From Candidatus Jordarchaeales archaeon (GTDB lineage Archaea > Asgardarchaeota > Jordiarchaeia > Jordiarchaeales > Freyrarchaeaceae): a stretch of DNA of 32,000 bases. Positions within the stretch are counted from its first letter, which is position 1. Each line of letters starts with the position of its first letter. The position numbers and the translations under genes are program-made. The notes beneath the pieces are model-generated. The model saw nothing but the letters and a program-made list of their open reading frames with translations. It was not told where the DNA came from and made no database searches. Location of the stretch: the NCBI GenBank assembly GCA_038858525.1, contig JAWCFL010000012.1, positions 29,492 through 61,491 of the forward strand, in the 5' to 3' direction. Below are positions 4,418 through 24,310 of this stretch, in pieces.

Positions 4418-5296
4418 TTGCTTCCGCTTTTTGTTAACTTAGAGCAAGTTACGCAGGGTCTCTTTATGACTGTCGTCATATGGATACTCCAGTATGGGTT
4501 TCTCGGTTTCTATGCAGCGATGGTCATACAAGCAATAATAGCAATCATCCCGAGTGAACTCATACTCATGTTCGGGGGAATCGCATACTCGCTTATCTAT
4601 TGGCCTGTGAATATTGTTAAGGGGTTCGACTACGCTTTGCTCGTGACTGCTCTGGTTGGAGGGGTTGGTGAACTGACGGGGGCGGTCGCAGGCTTCTACA
4701 TAGCAAGGATCGTAGGTAGGCCGATCGTATCCAAGTGGGAGGAGAAGGCGATGCAGGCTCGTGATGGAAATCCGAACGCGAAGAAGCTTGGAAGAATTGA
4801 GAAGGCGATCTTTTTGAGTCTGGGTGACGCCATTTTGATCGCGGATAACTGGCTTGAAAAATGGGGGGCTATTGCCGTCCTGTTAGCTCGACTAGCTCCG
4901 CCAATACCTTTCGACGCCGTGTCTTACGGGTCAGGGCTCACTAAGATAAAGTTTAAGCCATTTATCGCCGCCACAACAGTTGGGGCGTTTCCAAGGGCTC
5001 TCATGTACGCTTACATAGGAAAAAGGACTTACGAAAGCTTTGTGTTAATCCCTCAAGCACTCAGAACACTGTTCTTCCTCACCGACAATCCTGTAGCCCA
5101 AATGCTCATATACAACTACTTGGCGGGCAACCCGATCATGAGCAACCCCTACACAATATTCTTCGCTGTGGCAGCAGCGATACTCGCCTCGCTCTACATA
5201 TCTTACGAGGTCATAAAGAGAACCCAACTTAGGGGGCACCGGGCAAGAGGGCTAGACGAGCCTTGCTCAAAAACTGGAGAGGAAAGCGTAAAGTGA
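4418..5296 (+). CDS. VTT/DedA-superfamily membrane protein (TVP38/TMEM64/TMEM41-like)
   Basis: Hydrophobic helices with IPSE and ARLAPPIPFDAVSYGSGL motifs. Confidence 0.8.
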   Translation: MLPLFVNLEQVTQGLFMTVVIWILQYGFLGFYAAMVIQAIIAIIPSELILMFGGIAYSLIYWPVNIVKGFDYALLVTALVGGVGELTGAVAGFYIARIVGRPIVSKWEEKAMQARDGNPNAKKLGRIEKAIFLSLGDAILIADNWLEKWGAIAVLLARLAPPIPFDAVSYGSGLTKIKFKPFIAATTVGAFPRALMYAYIGKRTYESFVLIPQALRTLFFLTDNPVAQMLIYNYLAGNPIMSNPYTIFFAVAAAILASLYISYEVIKRTQLRGHRARGLDEPCSKTGEESVK

Positions 5297-5374
5297 GATG
5301 AGCGTCAGAGACCTGCTCGCCGAGTAGTGTTTTTAGGGGGAGAGGTTCTCCTTTATTTTTTGGGCGTGGTTGCC

Positions 5375-6856
5375 GTGGCGAAGTGGCCTTACTTTGCAGG
5401 GGACTACGTGGTTGGAAGGGAGGAAGCTGCCTTCGCCGTGGTAACATGTGGCTCACATGACCTTCCTGAAAAGGTGGTTGCGCTGGCGGCTGACCTTGTA
5501 GCCATAGCGGGATCATGTGAGACCGAGAACGACGGCGTCGCCAGAGTGATCCAAAACATAGTTTCCAACAGCAACATACGATTTCTCGTCGTCTGCGGGG
5601 AGGAGGTTGTAGGGCACGCTCCGGGACAAACCATAGTGTCCCTCCACGAGAACGGCATAGGGCCAGACTACAAGGTTATTGGAAGCGAGGGCACAATACC
5701 CGTCCTGCACCCGAAGTACTTCAAGGTAGGGGACCCTTACACGGTCGTCGAGCGTTTCAGGAAGCAAGTTGAGTTAGTTGATCTCCGCGGAGAAAAAAAC
5801 CCGGACAGCATTGCGGCAAAGATACGCTCACTCGCAACCAAACGGGTCGAGAAATATTCTGAGCCGCCACTTCTCCCGCTTCCGGAAGAGGAAAAATATG
5901 ACTGGGCTACGGCACTTAGGCGCATCGAAGAGAAAGGCTGGCTGAGGGAGAGAGAAGTTGAGCCTGTGAGCTCTCTGTTCTACAGGAGGGAGTTGATGGT
6001 TTATGACGTCGCAGGAGTTAAGCTTGGGGGGCAGCGGGGAGAGTACTCCACTGTTCTGGCCGGGACGATCTTCTACAGGAAGGAGCCCATAGTCAGGGAC
6101 CCTATTAAGGGGATTTTCGATGAGAAGGCCGCTGAAGAGCTAATAGTGAGGCAGACGGAGCTTTCGGACGAGTACTGTGTGCCCTCGATGGTGCATGTGG
6201 TGGGCGAGACTGGGGAGGCTCTCTCAAACTATATGCTTTTCGTGGCGGACGTGACGGACGCACCAATAATAATAGATTCAACTAGTCTTGAAGCCCGCGT
6301 CGAAGCTATGATGATCGCGAAGGAGGTCGGACTGGAGCACAAAACAATATACAACTCGGTGTTAAGTGCTGAAGAGAGGGAGCTTGAAGCTTTGCGTGAC
6401 GTAGCGCCGATAGAGCACGCCATAATACTGTCTTATGGTTTCACGCTGGATGAGAGACTAAAAAAGGCGGATCTCATACTGTCCAGCGTTCGGGGGGTCG
6501 TAGAGAAGGCGATCCTGGACCCGGGGGTCCCCATACTCGGCGAGGGCGGATTGGAGGCGCTTCACTCCGCCTGGACTATGAAGAAGCTTTACGGCTACCC
6601 CACTGCTATAGGAATACACAACATGCTCGCAGGCGTTCACCACGAGTTGAGACGAAAAATGGACTTCTCCTTCATATACGCTCTTCCCTCACTGTATGGC
6701 GTCGACCTCAACCTCTATGGTCCGATGAAGAACGCGCCCAGAATTTTCCCCCTGGTTGCCGCCGCTGAAGCTGCAGTGGCGGATGAGTTACACAGCGTTC
6801 TCGGAGTCCATCCTAGGCCAACCCACCCATACTATAAAGTGAGGGAGACGAAATGA
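5375..6856 (+). CDS. mtrAH: MtrA-MtrH fusion: corrinoid-binding MtrA domain plus methyl-pterin methyltransferase MtrH domain
   Basis: N-terminal WPYFAGDY..CGSH..TENDG..SNIRFLVVCGEEVVGHAPGQ (MtrA, His at 5615-5617); C-terminal GGQRGEYSTVLAGTIFY..IIDST (MtrH). The track starts at 5327; GTG 5375 is preferred by homology. Confidence 0.85.
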   Translation: MAKWPYFAGDYVVGREEAAFAVVTCGSHDLPEKVVALAADLVAIAGSCETENDGVARVIQNIVSNSNIRFLVVCGEEVVGHAPGQTIVSLHENGIGPDYKVIGSEGTIPVLHPKYFKVGDPYTVVERFRKQVELVDLRGEKNPDSIAAKIRSLATKRVEKYSEPPLLPLPEEEKYDWATALRRIEEKGWLREREVEPVSSLFYRRELMVYDVAGVKLGGQRGEYSTVLAGTIFYRKEPIVRDPIKGIFDEKAAEELIVRQTELSDEYCVPSMVHVVGETGEALSNYMLFVADVTDAPIIIDSTSLEARVEAMMIAKEVGLEHKTIYNSVLSAEERELEALRDVAPIEHAIILSYGFTLDERLKKADLILSSVRGVVEKAILDPGVPILGEGGLEALHSAWTMKKLYGYPTAIGIHNMLAGVHHELRRKMDFSFIYALPSLYGVDLNLYGPMKNAPRIFPLVAAAEAAVADELHSVLGVHPRPTHPYYKVRETK

Positions 6857-8037
6857 AGCCATACGGCCCATACCTTATAAGGGCGTGTCACGTTGACGCA
6901 GCCTGGAGGCAGGCTAACAGGCTTATCCTCGAGAAAGGCATACCAGTAACCACAGAGGACAGGAACCAGGAAACCCTTGAAACAATAGGATGCATAATAC
7001 ACCTGACAGACTGGAGGAGCGGACCCATACTCCCCCGCGGATACATAGGAATGGATGAAGCAACCCTCAAGGGGAGTTACATACCCCAGTACTTAGCTTC
7101 GGATAAGGGTACACACACGTACACCTACGGGTGGTGCGCTAGGAAAAGGTTTGGTGTCAACCAGGTTGAAGAGGCAGGGAAAGCCCTAAGAAAAAGCAAT
7201 ACTGCTATAATACAGTTCTGGAACCCGGCATCAGATACGTTAAACCAGAACCCGCCATGCATAAGCATGATAGTTCTCCACAGAACAGGAGACCACGTCA
7301 ACGCCGTAGTATACCTCAGAAGCAACGACATGGCTAGGGCATGGCCCGAGGACGTGGCTGGAATAAACATCGTGTTCCTCACCGAGGCTGCTTCATACCT
7401 CAAGGGCGTAGAATCCATAGGGACGACGACAACGATATCCGCGTCAGCCCACATATACCGAACTTCCGAGGAGGAGCTGAGGGAGACGCTAAGCCAAACA
7501 ATGACCCCGACGGTGAGAAGGCGGAGAGAACCGGAGCGCAGGGCGACCGGAGGACCAATAATGATTGAAGCTACAACAATAAGGGAAGCGGTGGAGAAAA
7601 CAAGGAAGGTGGCTGAAAGGCACGCTGAGCCATTATACCCCATCCTGAAAATCCGCAGGCCCGAAGTGTTCGAGCCAGACCACGAACTAATAGACAAGCT
7701 GGAGGGCTACAATGGAGAGACGGACCAGGGGGAGAAGAAAACGGTAAATCAGCTCAACTACGCTGCTGAAAAGGTAGCTAAAACCCCCCAAAGCAGAAGA
7801 ATAGTAGTAACACCGTGTAACCCGAAAAGGGGGCACCAGAACCCACTACTTATACAGTTCCTCCCAAGGCAGGAAAACCACACAATAGCATTCTACGCAA
7901 ACATCAACATAAACGAGATAATCCAGGAAGCAGCAAAAACAGCGGAAATACAAAGAATAGTCTCAGAAAAAGCTAAAATTAAACCAGGACAACTAATAGT
8001 CATCATAACTCCGCTAAACACTGAAAGCTGTAGCTAA
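6853..8037 (+). CDS. Thymidylate synthase-superfamily protein with a duplicated TS domain
   Basis: Domain 1 has YTYG, PPC, RSND and SAHIY; domain 2 has NQL..SRRIVV. Overlaps the upstream stop (ATGA). Confidence 0.82.
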   Translation: MKPYGPYLIRACHVDAAWRQANRLILEKGIPVTTEDRNQETLETIGCIIHLTDWRSGPILPRGYIGMDEATLKGSYIPQYLASDKGTHTYTYGWCARKRFGVNQVEEAGKALRKSNTAIIQFWNPASDTLNQNPPCISMIVLHRTGDHVNAVVYLRSNDMARAWPEDVAGINIVFLTEAASYLKGVESIGTTTTISASAHIYRTSEEELRETLSQTMTPTVRRRREPERRATGGPIMIEATTIREAVEKTRKVAERHAEPLYPILKIRRPEVFEPDHELIDKLEGYNGETDQGEKKTVNQLNYAAEKVAKTPQSRRIVVTPCNPKRGHQNPLLIQFLPRQENHTIAFYANININEIIQEAAKTAEIQRIVSEKAKIKPGQLIVIITPLNTESCS

Positions 8038-8335: not shown

Positions 8336-8494
8336 ATGAGTGAAGTAACGCCTTCACGTGTAAAATGCCCCAAGTGCGGTAGTATTGATGTAAAACAGAC
8401 TGAAGATAAAAGCAAAGTGCTCAGCTATGCTGGAGGGCAACCGATCTACAAGAAAATCTGGAAATGCAAGAAGTGCGGAGAGACGTGGGGATAA
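8336..8494 (+). CDS. Small zinc-ribbon protein (52 aa)
   Basis: CPKCG...CKKCG; ATG 8336 follows GGAGGATGTGA. Confidence 0.7.
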   Translation: MSEVTPSRVKCPKCGSIDVKQTEDKSKVLSYAGGQPIYKKIWKCKKCGETWG

Positions 8495-8628
8495 AACCAA
8501 CCACTAAGTGATTCAGGCTGATGAGCGTGCCTAGCGAATATCTGTTTTTTCTCTACTTATCTTTATCAAACAATAACAGTTTCTTCGTATGGTATATTTA
8601 CTCATTTGTTAATCCATATCTCTCATAT

Positions 8629-9345
8629 ATGTTTGACCCAGCCTACCTGTTTTGGGACATGTTAATGTTATGGATGAATCCTCTTGCTTGGGGTATGTTT
8701 TGTTTTTCAAATTTTTTTCCAGGCGGGGATCTAGGTGTTTACTTCGCGGTGTTTCTCGTTAGCATTTTCGGCAACTTATCCGTAATTTTCCCGGTACCAT
8801 ACGTAATTTTTCTTTGGTTTCTGGTTATTTTTAGAGTTTGGATTAATCCTCTGCTTTTAGGAATTGCAGCCGGCAGTGGAGCAGCTATAGGTGAGACCTC
8901 TGCCTGGCTTCTCGGGAGAGGGGCGGCTGAAGCGCTGGAGGACACGCAGTATGGTCAGCGGCTTAAGCGCTACGGGAGTCTCATAGAGCGGGGGTGGGGG
9001 ATCCCGCTAATCATTATATTTGCGGCATTGCCTTTGCCCGACGACGTCCTTCTTTTAGCTCTAGGGGCGCTTAAGTATTCCTATAAGAAAACAATTATAG
9101 CTTGCTTTACAGGAAAAATCATAATGTGTGTCGCAATATCTTTTGCTGCACGAGCATTTTCAACAACAAGAATATTCGGGAAAACTATCCTTGAGTGGTA
9201 CTCCGGGGAAGCGGGATTAACCACGATGCTTACCAGCATCGCCTTAATGATCCTAGTTTTCATAGCTCTGTTGTTCATTGATTGGGGTAAACTCTACCGA
9301 AAACTAAAAGAACTCATAAATAGCATTTCAAAGGTGTTCCCCTAA
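8629..9345 (+). CDS. VTT/DedA-superfamily membrane protein (YqaA/VMP1-like)
   Basis: FPVPY, GAAIGETSAWLLGR, PLPDD. The track starts at 8521, but that segment looks like AT-rich promoter DNA. Confidence 0.7.
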   Translation: MFDPAYLFWDMLMLWMNPLAWGMFCFSNFFPGGDLGVYFAVFLVSIFGNLSVIFPVPYVIFLWFLVIFRVWINPLLLGIAAGSGAAIGETSAWLLGRGAAEALEDTQYGQRLKRYGSLIERGWGIPLIIIFAALPLPDDVLLLALGALKYSYKKTIIACFTGKIIMCVAISFAARAFSTTRIFGKTILEWYSGEAGLTTMLTSIALMILVFIALLFIDWGKLYRKLKELINSISKVFP

Positions 9346-20816: not shown

Positions 20817-21353
20817 CTAAGAAGTCTGCACACTTCGCTTAGTAATGATCATTCTGGCTAGGTCGGCGAACGCCTCATTAACGTTCATACCTGTCTTAGC
20901 GCTAGTTTCGAAGTATAGCAAATTGTGCTTAATGGCGAACTCTAGCGCATCCTCAAGGGGAACGCTTCGAGGCAAGTCATGCTTGTTCCCGATTAAAATC
21001 AGCGGGATGTCGCCGCAATGCGACCTAACCTCCTCAATCCAGAATGGTAGTCTCTTAAAGCTCTCCACCTTAGTCACATCATAAACACAGAGGCCCCCAA
21101 CAGACCCCCGATAGTATAGCGGTCTAATGTGGCTGAACCTGTCCTGCCCCGACTGGTCCCAAACCTGAAACTTAACGTTTTTCCTCCCAAGAGGCGTGTC
21201 AACTTCAATGTTCTTCACAGCAAAATCTACTCCAACAGTCATCTTGTAGCTTTCCGAAAAAACACCCTCACTAAAACGTCTCGTTATAGAAGTCTTCCCG
21301 ACGCCTCCATCCCCAACTATCACCACCTTAAACAAGTAGGCATACTCCGCCAT
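20817..21353 (-). CDS. Rab-like small GTPase (Ras superfamily)
   Basis: G1 GDGGVGKT, G2 TVGVDF, G3 WDQSGQ, G4 NKHD, G5 ETSAK. Confidence 0.93.
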
Positions 21354-22567: not shown

Positions 22568-24310
22568 TTATGTTTGAGGTTGCTGTTTGGCTTGCGAGAA
22601 CAAGTCCAGTATTGTTAAGGCGATTATCTTGGCGGCTTCCAGTATCTCCTTTATTGATACTTTCTCGTTTGGTTTGTGTTTTTGCTCTCCTTCCCCTGGC
22701 CCGAAAGAAGCTGCCGGGATCCCGTTCAGTATGCAAACCTTCGTCATTGTGACTTCCCTTTCGCCTACGAGCTTAGCATCTTCTCCGGTTATCTCTTTCA
22801 CGTTTTTCTTTAACGTCTGTATCAAGGGGTGGTTTTGGGGGATTTCCGTTGGCGGCTCTGAAAGGATTATGTCGAGCGATATTTCGACTCCTTTAATCTC
22901 TTCCTCCGTTTTTCTTACGACTTCTGTTAGACGGGAAATTATTTCTTCTTCTTTTATAGCTGGAGTATACCTTATATCTATCGCGGCTTCAGCCTTATCA
23001 GGCACGATGTTTACTCCTATGCCACCCTGAATTGTTCCTATATTCATGGTCACTTCTCCCATGAGAGGGTGAGGTGGTACGTCGAACTTGACCTCGGATA
23101 TTCTCCCTAGGAGCCTTACTAATGCCTGTACCGCGTTTGCTCCTTCCTGCGGTGTGGACGCATGTGCGGAGCGCCCTCTACAGGTGACCTTAAGCCAGAG
23201 CAAGCCTCTCTCCGCGACGCATATATCTTTGCTTCTCGTGTTTCCTCCAATTATAGCGTAGTCCGCATTTATTTTTCGCTCCCTCAATAAGCTTTTTATT
23301 CCGAGTTCTCCGGCTACTTCCTCGTCAGCTGTTGCCACAAGCAGCACGGTACCGTCAAGTTGCAGGTTTAGCTTTTTGATTGCGTGTAGTGCAAGTAGCA
23401 TAGAGGTTAGAGGCCCTTTGGCATCTACGCTTCCTCTTCCTATTACGTAGCCATCTTTCACCGTTGCTCTGAAGGGCGGATACATCCACCCGTCTCCCGG
23501 CGTAACGACGTCGAGGTGAGCTGCCAGCATAATCTTGGGCTCTCCTTCCCCAAGCCTTCCTATAACGTTGGTTCGCCCCTCCTTTTTCTCGTAAATTTCT
23601 GTTTGGGCTCCTATCCTGTAAAGCTCCCCTAACACTATTTCGGCCGCGCTTTGCTCGTATCCCGGGGGGTTTACTGACTGAGCGGATATGAGGTCTCTTA
23701 GCAAGTTGACTGCGTAGTTCTCGCCTTCGTCTATGATTTCTGTAAGGCGCTTTCTCATTTCTGGCGTCAATTTTAATGGGGTTACCTTCGCTTTTTCTTC
23801 CTTGATCCCTAGGATGAGCTTAGCTGCGGCTGTGAATGCTTCATCCACCATGTATCTCGTCTTTGCACTCGTCTCAAAGTAGAGCGCGCCCAGCTTTCTA
23901 GCCATTTGCTCTGCTTCGTACCTTGGGACTCTCCGCTCACTGACTAAGTCATGCTTATTCCCCACTAAGATTATCGGTATCTTGCCGCATGTGCTTGTGA
24001 GCTCATTATACCATTTTTCGACGTTCTCAAAACTCCTCATGTTTGTTAAGTCGAAGACTATTACTCCCCCCCTCGCTTCAGTGTAAAAAAACGAGCGCAG
24101 GTGGGCGAAGCTTGGCTGACCCCCTAGATCCCAGAGCTGTAACGTGACTATTTTTCCGTCCAGATCGGTTTTGTAAGAAGCAAAATCAGCTCCTAAAGTT
24201 GGACGGTAATCTGTTGGAAATCTGTTTTCCGTAAGCACTAAGATAAGGCTTGTTTTTCCAACATTACCGTCCCCAATAACGACAATCTTGAAAACGTACT
24301 CTTCCTGCAT
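22568..24310 (-). CDS. Fusion of an N-terminal Rab-like GTPase and a C-terminal M20 family (ArgE/DapE-like) metallo-deacylase
   Basis: GDGNVGKT/WDLGGQ/NKHD/ETSAK followed in frame by HLDVV, GRGSVDAKG, ADEE, GRSAHAS, GPG..HKPNE. Confidence 0.88.
   Translation of the reverse strand: MQEEYVFKIVVIGDGNVGKTSLILVLTENRFPTDYRPTLGADFASYKTDLDGKIVTLQLWDLGGQPSFAHLRSFFYTEARGGVIVFDLTNMRSFENVEKWYNELTSTCGKIPIILVGNKHDLVSERRVPRYEAEQMARKLGALYFETSAKTRYMVDEAFTAAAKLILGIKEEKAKVTPLKLTPEMRKRLTEIIDEGENYAVNLLRDLISAQSVNPPGYEQSAAEIVLGELYRIGAQTEIYEKKEGRTNVIGRLGEGEPKIMLAAHLDVVTPGDGWMYPPFRATVKDGYVIGRGSVDAKGPLTSMLLALHAIKKLNLQLDGTVLLVATADEEVAGELGIKSLLRERKINADYAIIGGNTRSKDICVAERGLLWLKVTCRGRSAHASTPQEGANAVQALVRLLGRISEVKFDVPPHPLMGEVTMNIGTIQGGIGVNIVPDKAEAAIDIRYTPAIKEEEIISRLTEVVRKTEEEIKGVEISLDIILSEPPTEIPQNHPLIQTLKKNVKEITGEDAKLVGEREVTMTKVCILNGIPAASFGPGEGEQKHKPNEKVSIKEILEAAKIIALTILDLFSQAKQQPQT

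What the first reader, a model, noticed from the sequence alone, without database searches (positions are those of the whole stretch)
5375..8037. Candidate new C1-transfer module: soluble MtrA-MtrH fusion coupled to the cytosine-type TS-like enzyme
Seen: the mtrAH stop overlaps the TS-like start (ATGA, 6853-6856). The MtrA cobamide-ligand His is retained, no C-terminal membrane anchor is apparent, and mtrB-G and mcr genes are absent from the window. Established: MtrH transfers methyl from methyl-H4MPT to the MtrA corrinoid; MtrA/MtrH genes without the rest of the complex occur in non-methanogenic archaea, with unclear roles. Inference: the partner gene suggests the corrinoid methyl is linked to pyrimidine or cofactor modification instead of Na+-pumping methanogenesis. 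This is the best candidate for an undescribed system here.
Basis: partly seen in the sequence, partly recalled or inferred. Interest (0 to 1): 0.82.

Follow-up and report, generated by a model that had tools for sequence, protein, structure and literature searches.

The report
B12 methyl-carrier paired with thymidylate synthase
In this Asgard archaeon and its relatives, the only recognisable enzyme for making the DNA base thymine is an unusual single-chain thymidylate synthase that always follows, and is predicted to bind, a vitamin-B12-type methyl-carrier protein, which points to an untested third way of making thymidylate.

Summary
Window 5375-6856 (+) encodes a soluble MtrA-MtrH fusion. It keeps the cobamide His (H97) and the MtrH pterin-activating Asp and Asn. 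Its stop overlaps (ATGA, 6853-6856) the start of a 394-aa thymidylate-synthase (TS)-fold protein.

That protein is a single-chain pseudo-dimer. The N-domain keeps the catalytic Cys136 but has Asp167 where ThyA has the uracil-specifying Asn. The C-domain has lost the Cys but keeps the SRR pair that a partner subunit normally donates.

In 301 sampled Asgard genomes, 18 carry this two-domain TS, and all 18 have the MtrAH fusion directly upstream. Every full-length MtrAH fusion found sits next to one. Flanking genes differ between lineages. These lineages show no ThyX and no second ThyA, and FolA was not found in the six checked.

Co-folding scored ipSAE 0.89 against 0.00 for the best control. The contact is through the MtrH domain.

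A large family of MtrA-like/TS/DUF4346 fusions also exists, but it lacks the His.

Best reading (about 0.5): a methyl-pterin to cobalt to pyrimidine-C5 relay that supplies thymidylate. The chemistry is untested, and the substrate (dUMP or dCMP) is open.

I found no paper linking MtrAH to TS. This scan has noted the same pairing before on other DNA.

The parts
5375..6856 (+). mtrAH: soluble MtrA-MtrH fusion. The longest ORF starts at GTG 5327; the likely start is GTG 5375 or 5366.
   Evidence: Orthologue alignment A3 begins M-x4-KWP.
5378..5875 (+). MtrA (corrinoid-binding) domain, residues 18-183. The cobalt-ligand His97 codon is at 5615-5617.
   Evidence: PF04208, 148 bits. Matches PDB MtrA 5LAA, 5L8X and 8Q3V at E 1e-31 to 1e-33. 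G96-H97-x-P99-G100-Q101 is invariant in 25 sequences.
5987..6787 (+). MtrH (methyl-pterin:corrinoid methyltransferase) domain, residues 221-487. The Asp317 codon is at 6275-6277 and the Asn432 codon at 6620-6622.
   Evidence: PF02007, 209 bits. Aligns to MtrH 8Z9U (8e-45) and MtgA 6SJ8 (2e-39). D317 and N432 align with the residues changed in the MtgA variant entries 6SJO and 6SJP, and both are invariant.
6841..6856 (+). Junction: SD-like GAGGGAG (6841-6847) and the ATGA stop/start overlap (6853-6856).
   Evidence: The same 4-nt overlap or a short gap is seen in orthologous loci.
6853..8037 (+). Two-domain TS-fold protein (394 aa), a single-chain pseudo-dimer.
   Evidence: AF2 model has pLDDT 91.5 and pTM 0.92.
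6853..7518 (+). Catalytic N-domain (residues 1-222): Cys136 (7258-7260), R156/S157/D159, Asp167 at the ThyA Asn177 position (7351-7353), H200/Y202. It lacks the SRR pair.
   Evidence: VIA-align Z is 21.6 to 9IQC, 20.1 to MilA and 16-18 to ThyA.
7540..8034 (+). Degenerate C-domain (residues 230-394): TS fold without the Cys, but with invariant S314-R315-R316 (R315-R316 codons at 7795-7800).
   Evidence: The C-domain folded alone has pLDDT 90.6. It gives Z 10.6-14.6 to seven TS-fold chains, with the next unrelated hit at 5.2. hhalign places it in register with the N-domain.

Best explanation
The two genes encode one cytoplasmic complex that acts as a three-module corrinoid methyl relay and supplies the 5-methyl group of thymidylate. 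(1) The MtrH domain takes the methyl group from N5-methyl-H4MPT (or a methyl-folate) onto Co(I) of the cobamide held His-on by the tethered MtrA domain. (2) The TS-fold pseudo-dimer is docked on MtrH in a 1:1 complex. It binds a pyrimidine deoxynucleotide in its single active site, which is built from Cys136 of the N-domain and Arg315/Arg316 of the C-domain, and it makes C5 nucleophilic by Cys addition at C6. (3) C5 then takes the methyl from CH3-Co(III) and regenerates Co(I). The product is dTMP directly, or 5-methyl-dCMP that is later deaminated, as the invariant Asp167 hints. The pterin is never oxidised, so no dihydrofolate or dihydromethanopterin reductase is needed. Shown here: domain identities, conserved catalytic residues, the pseudo-dimer fold, strict gene pairing, absence of other TS/ThyX/FolA hits, and a predicted MtrH-TS interface. 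Inferred: corrinoid loading, the direction and acceptor of methyl transfer, the substrate, and the product.
For: Gene pairing. 18 of 18 genomes with the two-domain TS have a full-length MtrAH fusion directly upstream on the same strand, with alignment ends 0-85 nt apart in 17 of the 18 (about 370 nt in G020, where the MtrAH alignment is partial). All 18 full-length fusions found lie next to the TS. These genomes span five GTDB families, with TS identity down to 36%. Six look-ups in public contigs agree, and the flanking genes differ. In the same families, two incomplete genomes lack both genes (G047, G050).
Essential role. This is the only PF00303 hit in the own genome, which has no ThyX and no thymidine kinase. 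ThyX is found in 0 of 19 genomes of the five families. FolA is absent from the own genome and from 5 of 5 relatives checked.
Modules are intact. H97, D317 and N432 are invariant in MtrAH. C136, R156, S157, H200, Y202 and R315/R316 are invariant in the TS.
Methyl donor is plausible. Mer scores above its cut-off in the genome, so CH3-H4MPT should be made.
Predicted complex. ipSAE was 0.90, 0.89 and 0.89 against a best control of 0.00. That mark was reached by 58 of 80 solved complexes and 2 of 110 mismatched pairs. The runs agree in at least 85% of contacts and the partner's pLDDT is at least 89. I know of no solved MtrH-TS complex that the model could have memorised.
Independent fusions. An MtrA-like domain is fused to an archaeal-type TS in at least 135 full-length 50%-identity clusters.
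Precedent in print. Price et al. 2021 (PMC7857596) predict that another biosynthetic enzyme, MesA, takes methyl groups from MtrA. Valentin-Alvarado et al. 2024 (PMC11291895) describe this Asgard MtrAH fusion and state that the fate of its methyl group is uncertain.
Against: No biochemistry exists. D159, the equivalent of ThyA Asp169, is invariant, as is the 60-104 segment. From my own knowledge, Asp169 contacts the pterin in ThyA, so its retention fits a pterin bound in the TS site, that is, classical methylene chemistry. The confident predicted contacts involve only the MtrH domain. No MtrA-TS contact was predicted, and I could not inspect coordinates to see whether the corrinoid could reach Cys136. 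The fused MtrA-like/TS/DUF4346 family lacks the cobalt-ligand His in 135 of 135 members and has no MtrH next door, so an MtrA fold can partner a TS without His-on corrinoid chemistry. Asp167 predicts a cytosine nucleotide, yet a CDA-fold dCMP deaminase was not found in the own genome or in 3 of 5 relatives, while a dCTP deaminase, the usual route to dUMP, is present. Polar methyl transfer from methyl-cobamide to a nucleotide carbon has no characterised example that I know of. The published metatranscriptome reports only weak expression of the mtr genes.
Confidence: 0.5

Rival explanations
1. Classical chemistry with a bound accessory. The TS-fold protein itself uses 5,10-methylene-H4MPT to methylate (with hydride transfer) or hydroxymethylate its nucleotide. 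MtrAH is a docked partner that feeds or buffers the C1-pterin pool, for example by moving methyl groups from corrinoid-dependent methylotrophy onto H4MPT for Mer to oxidise to the methylene level. Alternatively it hands over or regulates the pterin.
For: D159 (the ThyA Asp169 equivalent), Y92, E43, H200 and Y202 are all retained. Mer is present. The genome has three further MtrH paralogues, and the literature places such genes next to methylamine methyltransferases. The predicted interface is with the pterin-binding MtrH barrel, not with MtrA. Triple fusions work without the His.
Against: This leaves unexplained why an invariant His-on corrinoid domain is kept in strict 1:1 genetic linkage with the TS. 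It also requires an unidentified dihydromethanopterin reductase, since FolA was not found. An indirect pool-level link rarely yields 18 of 18 adjacency with overlapping or near-abutting genes (gaps up to about 85 nt) and a confident predicted complex.
Confidence: 0.25
2. The pair makes a modified cytosine nucleotide, not thymidylate. It would be a (d)CMP C5-methylase or hydroxymethylase producing m5C or hm5C nucleotides for DNA, RNA or a cofactor, while dTMP comes from an enzyme not yet recognised.
For: Asp167 is invariant in 34 of 34 members, whereas single-domain and fused relatives have Asn. From my own knowledge, Asn-to-Asp turns L. casei/E. coli TS into a dCMP methylase. The best structural matches are the cytosine-nucleotide enzymes 9IQC (Z 21.6) and MilA (Z 20.1), ahead of ThyA at 16.8-18.
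Against: It would leave 18 genomes, three of them single-contig assemblies at 96-100% estimated completeness, with no ThyA, ThyX or (in the own genome) thymidine kinase for an essential metabolite. The Z-score margin is only 2-4 units.
Confidence: 0.1
3. Inherited synteny without a shared function. MtrAH methylates another acceptor, for example coenzyme M as suggested in print, and merely sits beside the housekeeping TS.
For: The five families are related Asgard lineages, so 18 of 18 is not 18 independent events. The literature proposes CoM as the acceptor.
Against: Flanking genes have been reshuffled at least five times while the pair stayed intact and co-oriented, often overlapping. The fused form of MtrAH is never found away from the TS. 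The co-fold scored 0.89 against 0.00. MtrA-like/TS fusions exist in unrelated CPR and DPANN lineages.
Confidence: 0.05

Closest known systems
MtrA and MtrH of the methanogen N5-methyl-H4MPT:coenzyme M methyltransferase (MtrA-H; PDB 5LAA, 5L8X, 8Q3V, 8Z9U, 9QTP)
   Same: Same two folds. The His cobalt ligand of MtrA is kept. The MtrH Asp and Asn that align with the functionally probed MtgA residues are kept.
   Different: Here the two are fused in one soluble chain without the MtrA membrane helix. No mtrB-G gene is in the window and no McrA is in the genome. Scores fall below the NCBIfam equivalog cut-offs. The partner is a TS-fold protein instead of MtrE and coenzyme M.
Three-component corrinoid methyltransferase systems (MT1, corrinoid protein, MT2), e.g. 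MtgA/MtgC, MtaABC, MetH, and the predicted MesA-MtrA pair (PMC7857596)
   Same: The logic is the same: a pterin or substrate methyltransferase, a corrinoid carrier and an acceptor-activating enzyme, encoded together. The MtrH domain is 2e-39 to MtgA.
   Different: Known acceptors are thiolates, pterin N5 or Ni. Here the putative acceptor module has a TS fold and would present a carbon nucleophile. No activase was looked for.
ThyA, especially the short archaeal/methanogen type (TIGR03283)
   Same: TS fold, Cys nucleophile, Arg/Ser phosphate cage, the Asp169-, His207- and Tyr209-equivalent residues, and the two Arg supplied across a dimer-like interface.
   Different: Two fused, diverged copies give one active site instead of a homodimer with two. 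Asp replaces the uracil-specifying Asn. The score is 100 bits against a cut-off of 174.55. It is genetically locked to MtrAH.
Cytosine-nucleotide TS-fold enzymes: MilA CMP hydroxymethylase (5JNH), T4 dCMP hydroxymethylase (6L18), and the FAD-dependent dCMP monooxygenase 9IQC
   Same: Asp is at the specificity position. These include the best structural matches of the N-domain (Z 21.6 and 20.1; MilA is also the top Foldseek hit).
   Different: Those enzymes are homo-oligomers that use methylene-folate or flavin and are not housekeeping TS replacements. Sequence profiles place this protein nearer to ThyA.
MtrA-like / TS / DUF4346 single-chain fusions of CPR bacteria, DPANN and some Asgard archaea (uncharacterised)
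   Same: An MtrA-fold domain is combined with an archaeal-type TS. In the two Asgard genomes that carry one (G059, G084), no ThyX and no second TS hit were found.
   Different: The TS domain is ordinary, with Asn and with Cys and RR in one domain. The MtrA-like domain lacks the His in 0 of 135 members. There is no MtrH, and a C-terminal DUF4346 is present that is otherwise found on the archaeal DHPS-like pterin enzyme.

Membership tests
MtrA (PF04208; corrinoid subunit of Mtr) | MtrA fold or profile match above the Pfam cut-off | tested here: met
   148.3 bits against a cut-off of 25. PDB MtrA chains match at 1e-29 to 1e-33.
MtrA (PF04208; corrinoid subunit of Mtr) | His lower axial ligand to cobalt (the GH motif) | tested here: met
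   H97 is present and invariant in 25 orthologues.
MtrA (PF04208; corrinoid subunit of Mtr) | C-terminal membrane helix and membership of an MtrA-H complex (equivalog TIGR01111) | tested here: not met
   143.7 bits against a cut-off of 249.15. The C-terminus continues into MtrH. This is the single MtrA hit in the genome, and no mtrB-G gene is in the window.
MtrH / MtgA methyl-pterin:corrinoid methyltransferases (PF02007) | Profile match, plus the Asp and Asn that align with the probed MtgA residues | tested here: met
   209 bits against a cut-off of 22.8. D317 and N432 align with the residues altered in MtgA entries 6SJO and 6SJP and are invariant. The protein is below the equivalog cut-off TIGR01114 (201 against 271).
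ThyA thymidylate synthase (PF00303) | TS fold with a Cys nucleophile and an Arg/Ser phosphate cage | tested here: met
   48.6 bits against a cut-off of 24.3. C136, R156, S157 and R315/R316 are invariant. Z is 16-18 to ThyA structures.
ThyA thymidylate synthase (PF00303) | Asn at the E. coli 177 position, which specifies uracil | tested here: not met
   Asp167 in 34 of 34 members. Single-domain and fused relatives have Asn.
ThyA thymidylate synthase (PF00303) | Obligate homodimer with two equivalent active sites | tested here: not met
   It is a single chain with two diverged TS-fold domains. Only the N-domain has the Cys and only the C-domain has the RR pair. This rests on a model and alignment, not on a solved structure.
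ThyA thymidylate synthase (PF00303) | Uses 5,10-methylene-pterin as both C1 donor and reductant | not testable with these tools
   Only the Asp169-equivalent D159 could be checked, and it is retained.
Archaeal/methanogen ThyA equivalog (TIGR03283) | Score above the curated cut-off | tested here: not met
   100 bits against a cut-off of 174.55.
dCMP/CMP hydroxymethylases (T4 gp42, MilA) | Asp at the specificity position and close structural similarity | tested here: inconclusive
   The Asp is present. MilA gives Z 20.1 and T4 dCH gives 16.1, against 16.8-18 for ThyA. No sequence-family model for these enzymes was available, and the activity is untested.
Three-component corrinoid methyltransferase system | MT1, corrinoid protein and MT2 encoded together and interacting | tested here: inconclusive
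   The MT1 (MtrH) and corrinoid-protein (MtrA) modules are present. The candidate MT2 (TS fold) is strictly adjacent and is predicted to bind MtrH. Corrinoid loading, the activase and methyl transfer were not tested.

The most novel reading that the evidence does not exclude
A third biochemical route to thymidylate, beside ThyA and ThyX. A TS-fold enzyme would accept an intact methyl group from a protein-bound methyl-cobamide charged from methyl-H4MPT. That would be a polar, B12-dependent C-methylation of a nucleotide that leaves the pterin reduced. It would explain both the orphan MtrAH genes of non-methanogenic archaea and how these lineages live without ThyX or FolA. The His-less MtrA-like/TS/DUF4346 fusions of CPR and DPANN may be a related form.
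Probability: 0.45. Interest if true: 0.92.

Novelty: new variant of a known kind. Interest (0 to 1): 0.82.

Why it matters
Thymidylate synthesis is essential, and only two enzyme classes are known for it, ThyA and ThyX. Here a whole set of Asgard lineages shows neither a standard ThyA, nor ThyX, nor FolA. Instead they have a remodelled one-site TS locked to a corrinoid methyl-transfer protein.

If the relay reading is right, it would define a new B12-dependent route to a DNA precursor. It would also give a first job to the MtrAH fusion, whose methyl acceptor is stated to be unknown in the literature (PMC11291895). It would add a carbon nucleophile to the known acceptors of corrinoid methyltransferases.

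Even under the conservative reading, the single-chain pseudo-dimeric TS with Asp at the specificity position and an obligate MtrH-docked partner is an undescribed architecture. The proposal can be tested directly with two recombinant proteins and a labelled methyl donor.

Tried and rejected
Literature. Searches for DUF4346, for MtrAH plus thymidylate synthase, and for MtrA plus thymidylate synthase plus corrinoid each returned 0 papers. The Asgard thymidylate paper (PMC9931769) mentions no Mtr gene or fusion. Adam 2022 (PMC9635834) mentions no TS. A search for the 9IQC-type flavin dCMP monooxygenase found nothing relevant.

Domain comparison by sequence. BLASTP of the N-domain against the C-domain found nothing (E 3). 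hhalign gave only a weak match, though in the correct register (E 0.05). The C-domain fold had to be settled by structure.

m5dCMP to dTMP through a ComEB-type deaminase. PF00383 was not found in the own genome, G006, G012 or G023. It is present only in G028 and G041. This is not a consistent partner.

Thymidine salvage. No TK was found in the own genome.

Triple fusions as proof of corrinoid chemistry. Rejected, because 0 of 135 keep the His and no MtrH lies nearby.

The roughly 17-20 kb spacing between MtrH-containing ORFs and single-domain TS in one Asgard family. I judged this to be inherited synteny, not coupling.

Co-fold contacts. The co-fold gave no confident MtrA-TS contacts. I could not read coordinates to measure the distance from Cys136 to the corrinoid site.

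Promoter. Only A/T-rich stretches were seen by eye at 5330-5335 and 5352-5361. The promoter tool is bacterial and was not used.
Full report
**What is there.**
The window carries two overlapping co-oriented ORFs, 5327/5375..6856 and 6853..8037. They are joined by ATGA at 6853-6856, with an SD-like GAGGGAG just upstream.

The first ORF is an MtrA domain (residues 18-183, 148 bits) fused to an MtrH domain (221-487, 209 bits).

The second ORF is a 394-aa protein with a thymidylate-synthase (TS) match. It scores below the equivalog cut-off of the archaeal ThyA model, 100 against 174.55 bits.

The surrounding genes are unrelated housekeeping genes plus Ras-family GTPases. Source names on the homologues place the locus in Asgard archaea, in the Jord-/Freyarchaeia. 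The window has no mtrB-G or mcr genes. The genome (2.09 Mb, 92.7% complete) has only this one MtrA hit and no McrA.

**The MtrAH protein looks catalytically intact.**
In 25 orthologues the G96-H97-x-P99-G100-Q101 motif is invariant. H97 is the cobalt-ligand position of methanogen MtrA.

D317 and N432 of the MtrH domain are also invariant. They align with the residues altered in the MtgA variant structures 6SJO and 6SJP.

This Asgard MtrAH fusion has been described in print (Valentin-Alvarado et al. 2024, PMC11291895). That paper says the fate of the methyl group is uncertain and does not mention thymidylate.

**The TS-like protein is a single-chain pseudo-dimer.**
The AlphaFold model is confident (pLDDT 91.5, pTM 0.92).

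- The N-domain (about residues 4-215) matches TS-fold enzymes at Z 16-21.6.
- The C-domain, folded alone (pLDDT 90.6), matches seven TS-fold chains at Z 10.6-14.6. The next unrelated chain scores 5.2.
- Across 34 family members, the N-domain keeps C136 (the nucleophile), R156, S157, D159, H200 and Y202, but has no Arg-Arg pair.
- The C-domain has lost the Cys but keeps an invariant S314-R315-R316. This sits in register with the SRR motif that a ThyA subunit donates to its partner's active site.

The chain should therefore have one active site rather than two.

The residue at the E. coli Asn177 position is Asp167 in 34 of 34 members. Single-domain Asgard TS proteins have Asn there, and so do 132 of 135 MtrA-like/TS/DUF4346 fusions. 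The best structural matches of the N-domain are the cytosine-nucleotide enzymes 9IQC and MilA, by 2-4 Z units over ThyA.

**The pairing is strict.**
I sampled 301 Asgard genomes.

- 18 carry the two-domain TS. They belong to five GTDB families, and TS identity to the query falls to 36%.
- All 18 have a full-length MtrA-MtrH fusion immediately upstream on the same strand.
- Conversely, every full-length fusion found lies next to such a TS.
- Two incomplete genomes of these families lack both genes.
- Six look-ups in public contigs gave the same pair inside at least five different flanking contexts.

The genomes are related, so these are not 18 independent events. Still, the pair has survived repeated reshuffling of its neighbours.

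**The pair is probably essential.**
- The own genome has no other PF00303 hit, no ThyX, no thymidine kinase and no FolA.
- ThyX was found in 0 of 19 genomes of the five families but in 139 of 301 overall.
- FolA was found in 0 of 5 further pair-holding genomes, three of them single-contig assemblies (96-100% estimated completeness).
- Mer is present, so both methylene- and methyl-H4MPT should be available.
- A dCTP deaminase is present.
- A CDA-fold dCMP deaminase was not found in the own genome or in 3 of 5 relatives.

**Physical coupling.**
I co-folded MtrAH (alignment A3) with the TS (alignment A2). ipSAE was 0.90, 0.89 and 0.89, against a best control of 0.00. That mark was reached by 58 of 80 solved complexes and 2 of 110 mismatched pairs. 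The runs agree in at least 85% of contacts, and the partner's pLDDT is at least 89. This supports binding but does not show it.

The confident interface joins the MtrH domain (residues 227-339 and 497-500) to the seam of the pseudo-dimer (TS residues 7-24, 50-53, 213-222, 232-238 and 253-257). The MtrA domain has no confident contact. That would fit a tethered carrier that swings between sites, but it does not demonstrate one.

**Independent fusions, with a caveat.**
Proteins that fuse an MtrA-like domain, an archaeal-type TS and DUF4346 occur in CPR bacteria, Nanoarchaeia and some Asgard genomes. A search of 1.84 billion cluster representatives gave 374 proteins at E up to 1e-30, of which at least 135 are full length.

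Their TS domain is ordinary. Their MtrA-like domain, however, lacks the His ligand in 135 of 135 members, and no MtrH lies nearby.

DUF4346 otherwise sits on the archaeal DHPS-like pterin enzyme, which in this genome lies next to MptA.

These fusions support an MtrA-fold/TS partnership. They do not prove corrinoid chemistry.

**Interpretation.**
MtrH and MtrA are the first two modules of a corrinoid methyl relay. In known systems of this type, the third co-encoded module activates the methyl acceptor.

Here that place is taken by a TS-fold enzyme, whose established chemistry makes C5 of a pyrimidine nucleotide nucleophilic. I therefore favour a relay from methyl-pterin to cobalt to C5 that supplies thymidylate without oxidising the pterin (confidence about 0.5). 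This would also explain the missing FolA and ThyX, and the 1:1 one-site architecture. Price et al. 2021 (PMC7857596) made an analogous prediction, that MesA takes methyl from MtrA.

The main rival (0.25) is classical methylene-H4MPT chemistry with MtrAH as a docked accessory. It is favoured by the retained Asp169-equivalent D159 and by the MtrH-only interface.

The substrate is open. Asp167 and the structural neighbours point to dCMP, but the missing dCMP deaminase and the present dCTP deaminase fit dUMP at least as well.

**Novelty.**
I found no paper that links MtrAH or MtrA to a thymidylate synthase.

Earlier notes of this scan report the same kind of pairing on other DNA from Asgard, CPR and DPANN organisms. 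I treated them as leads only. One of them led me to the Price 2021 paper.

Noticed in passing
window 22568-24310 (-): One 580-aa ORF fuses a Ras/Rab-like GTPase domain (residues 8-166) to a complete M20 peptidase/deacylase with its dimerisation domain.
   Followed up: no
window 20817-21353 (-): Stand-alone Ras-family small GTPase (175 bits), typical of Asgard archaea.
   Followed up: no
window 4418-5296 (+) and 8521-9345 (+): Two VTT/DedA-domain membrane proteins flank the mtrAH-TS pair. The upstream GGR-like oxidoreductase plus VTT arrangement recurs only in the closest relatives.
   Followed up: partly
window 8336-8494 (+): Unlisted 52-aa ORF with two CxxC pairs lying between the TS gene and the next gene. 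It gives weak zinc-ribbon matches below the Pfam cut-offs.
   Followed up: partly
G000:C3:41666-41896 (locus L026): The genome's only DUF4346 is the C-terminus of a 514-aa DUF6513 + Pterin_bind (DHPS-like) protein. That gene overlaps a GTP cyclohydrolase MptA/FolE2-type gene, forming a pterin-biosynthesis pair.
   Followed up: partly
Asgard family f7 genomes, e.g. G055:C21, G075:C1, G238:C1: A single-domain, Asn-type TS of about 210 aa lies a constant 17-20 kb from an MtrH-containing ORF, often about 545-560 aa, on the same contig in many genomes. This looks like conserved synteny rather than adjacency.
   Followed up: no
loci L019 (G059:C13) and L020 (G084:C277): Two Asgard genomes carry the MtrA-like/TS/DUF4346 triple fusion, otherwise seen in CPR and DPANN. 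No ThyX was found in either. The L019 copy reads GFWPGQ where MtrA has GHxPGQ.
   Followed up: partly
PDB 9IQC (structural match to window 6853-7518): The best structural neighbour of both TS-fold domains is a 234-aa TS-fold 'monooxygenase dependent on riboflavin with dCMP and FAD'. This shows that short TS-fold enzymes can use cofactors other than folate. I found no paper on it.
   Followed up: partly
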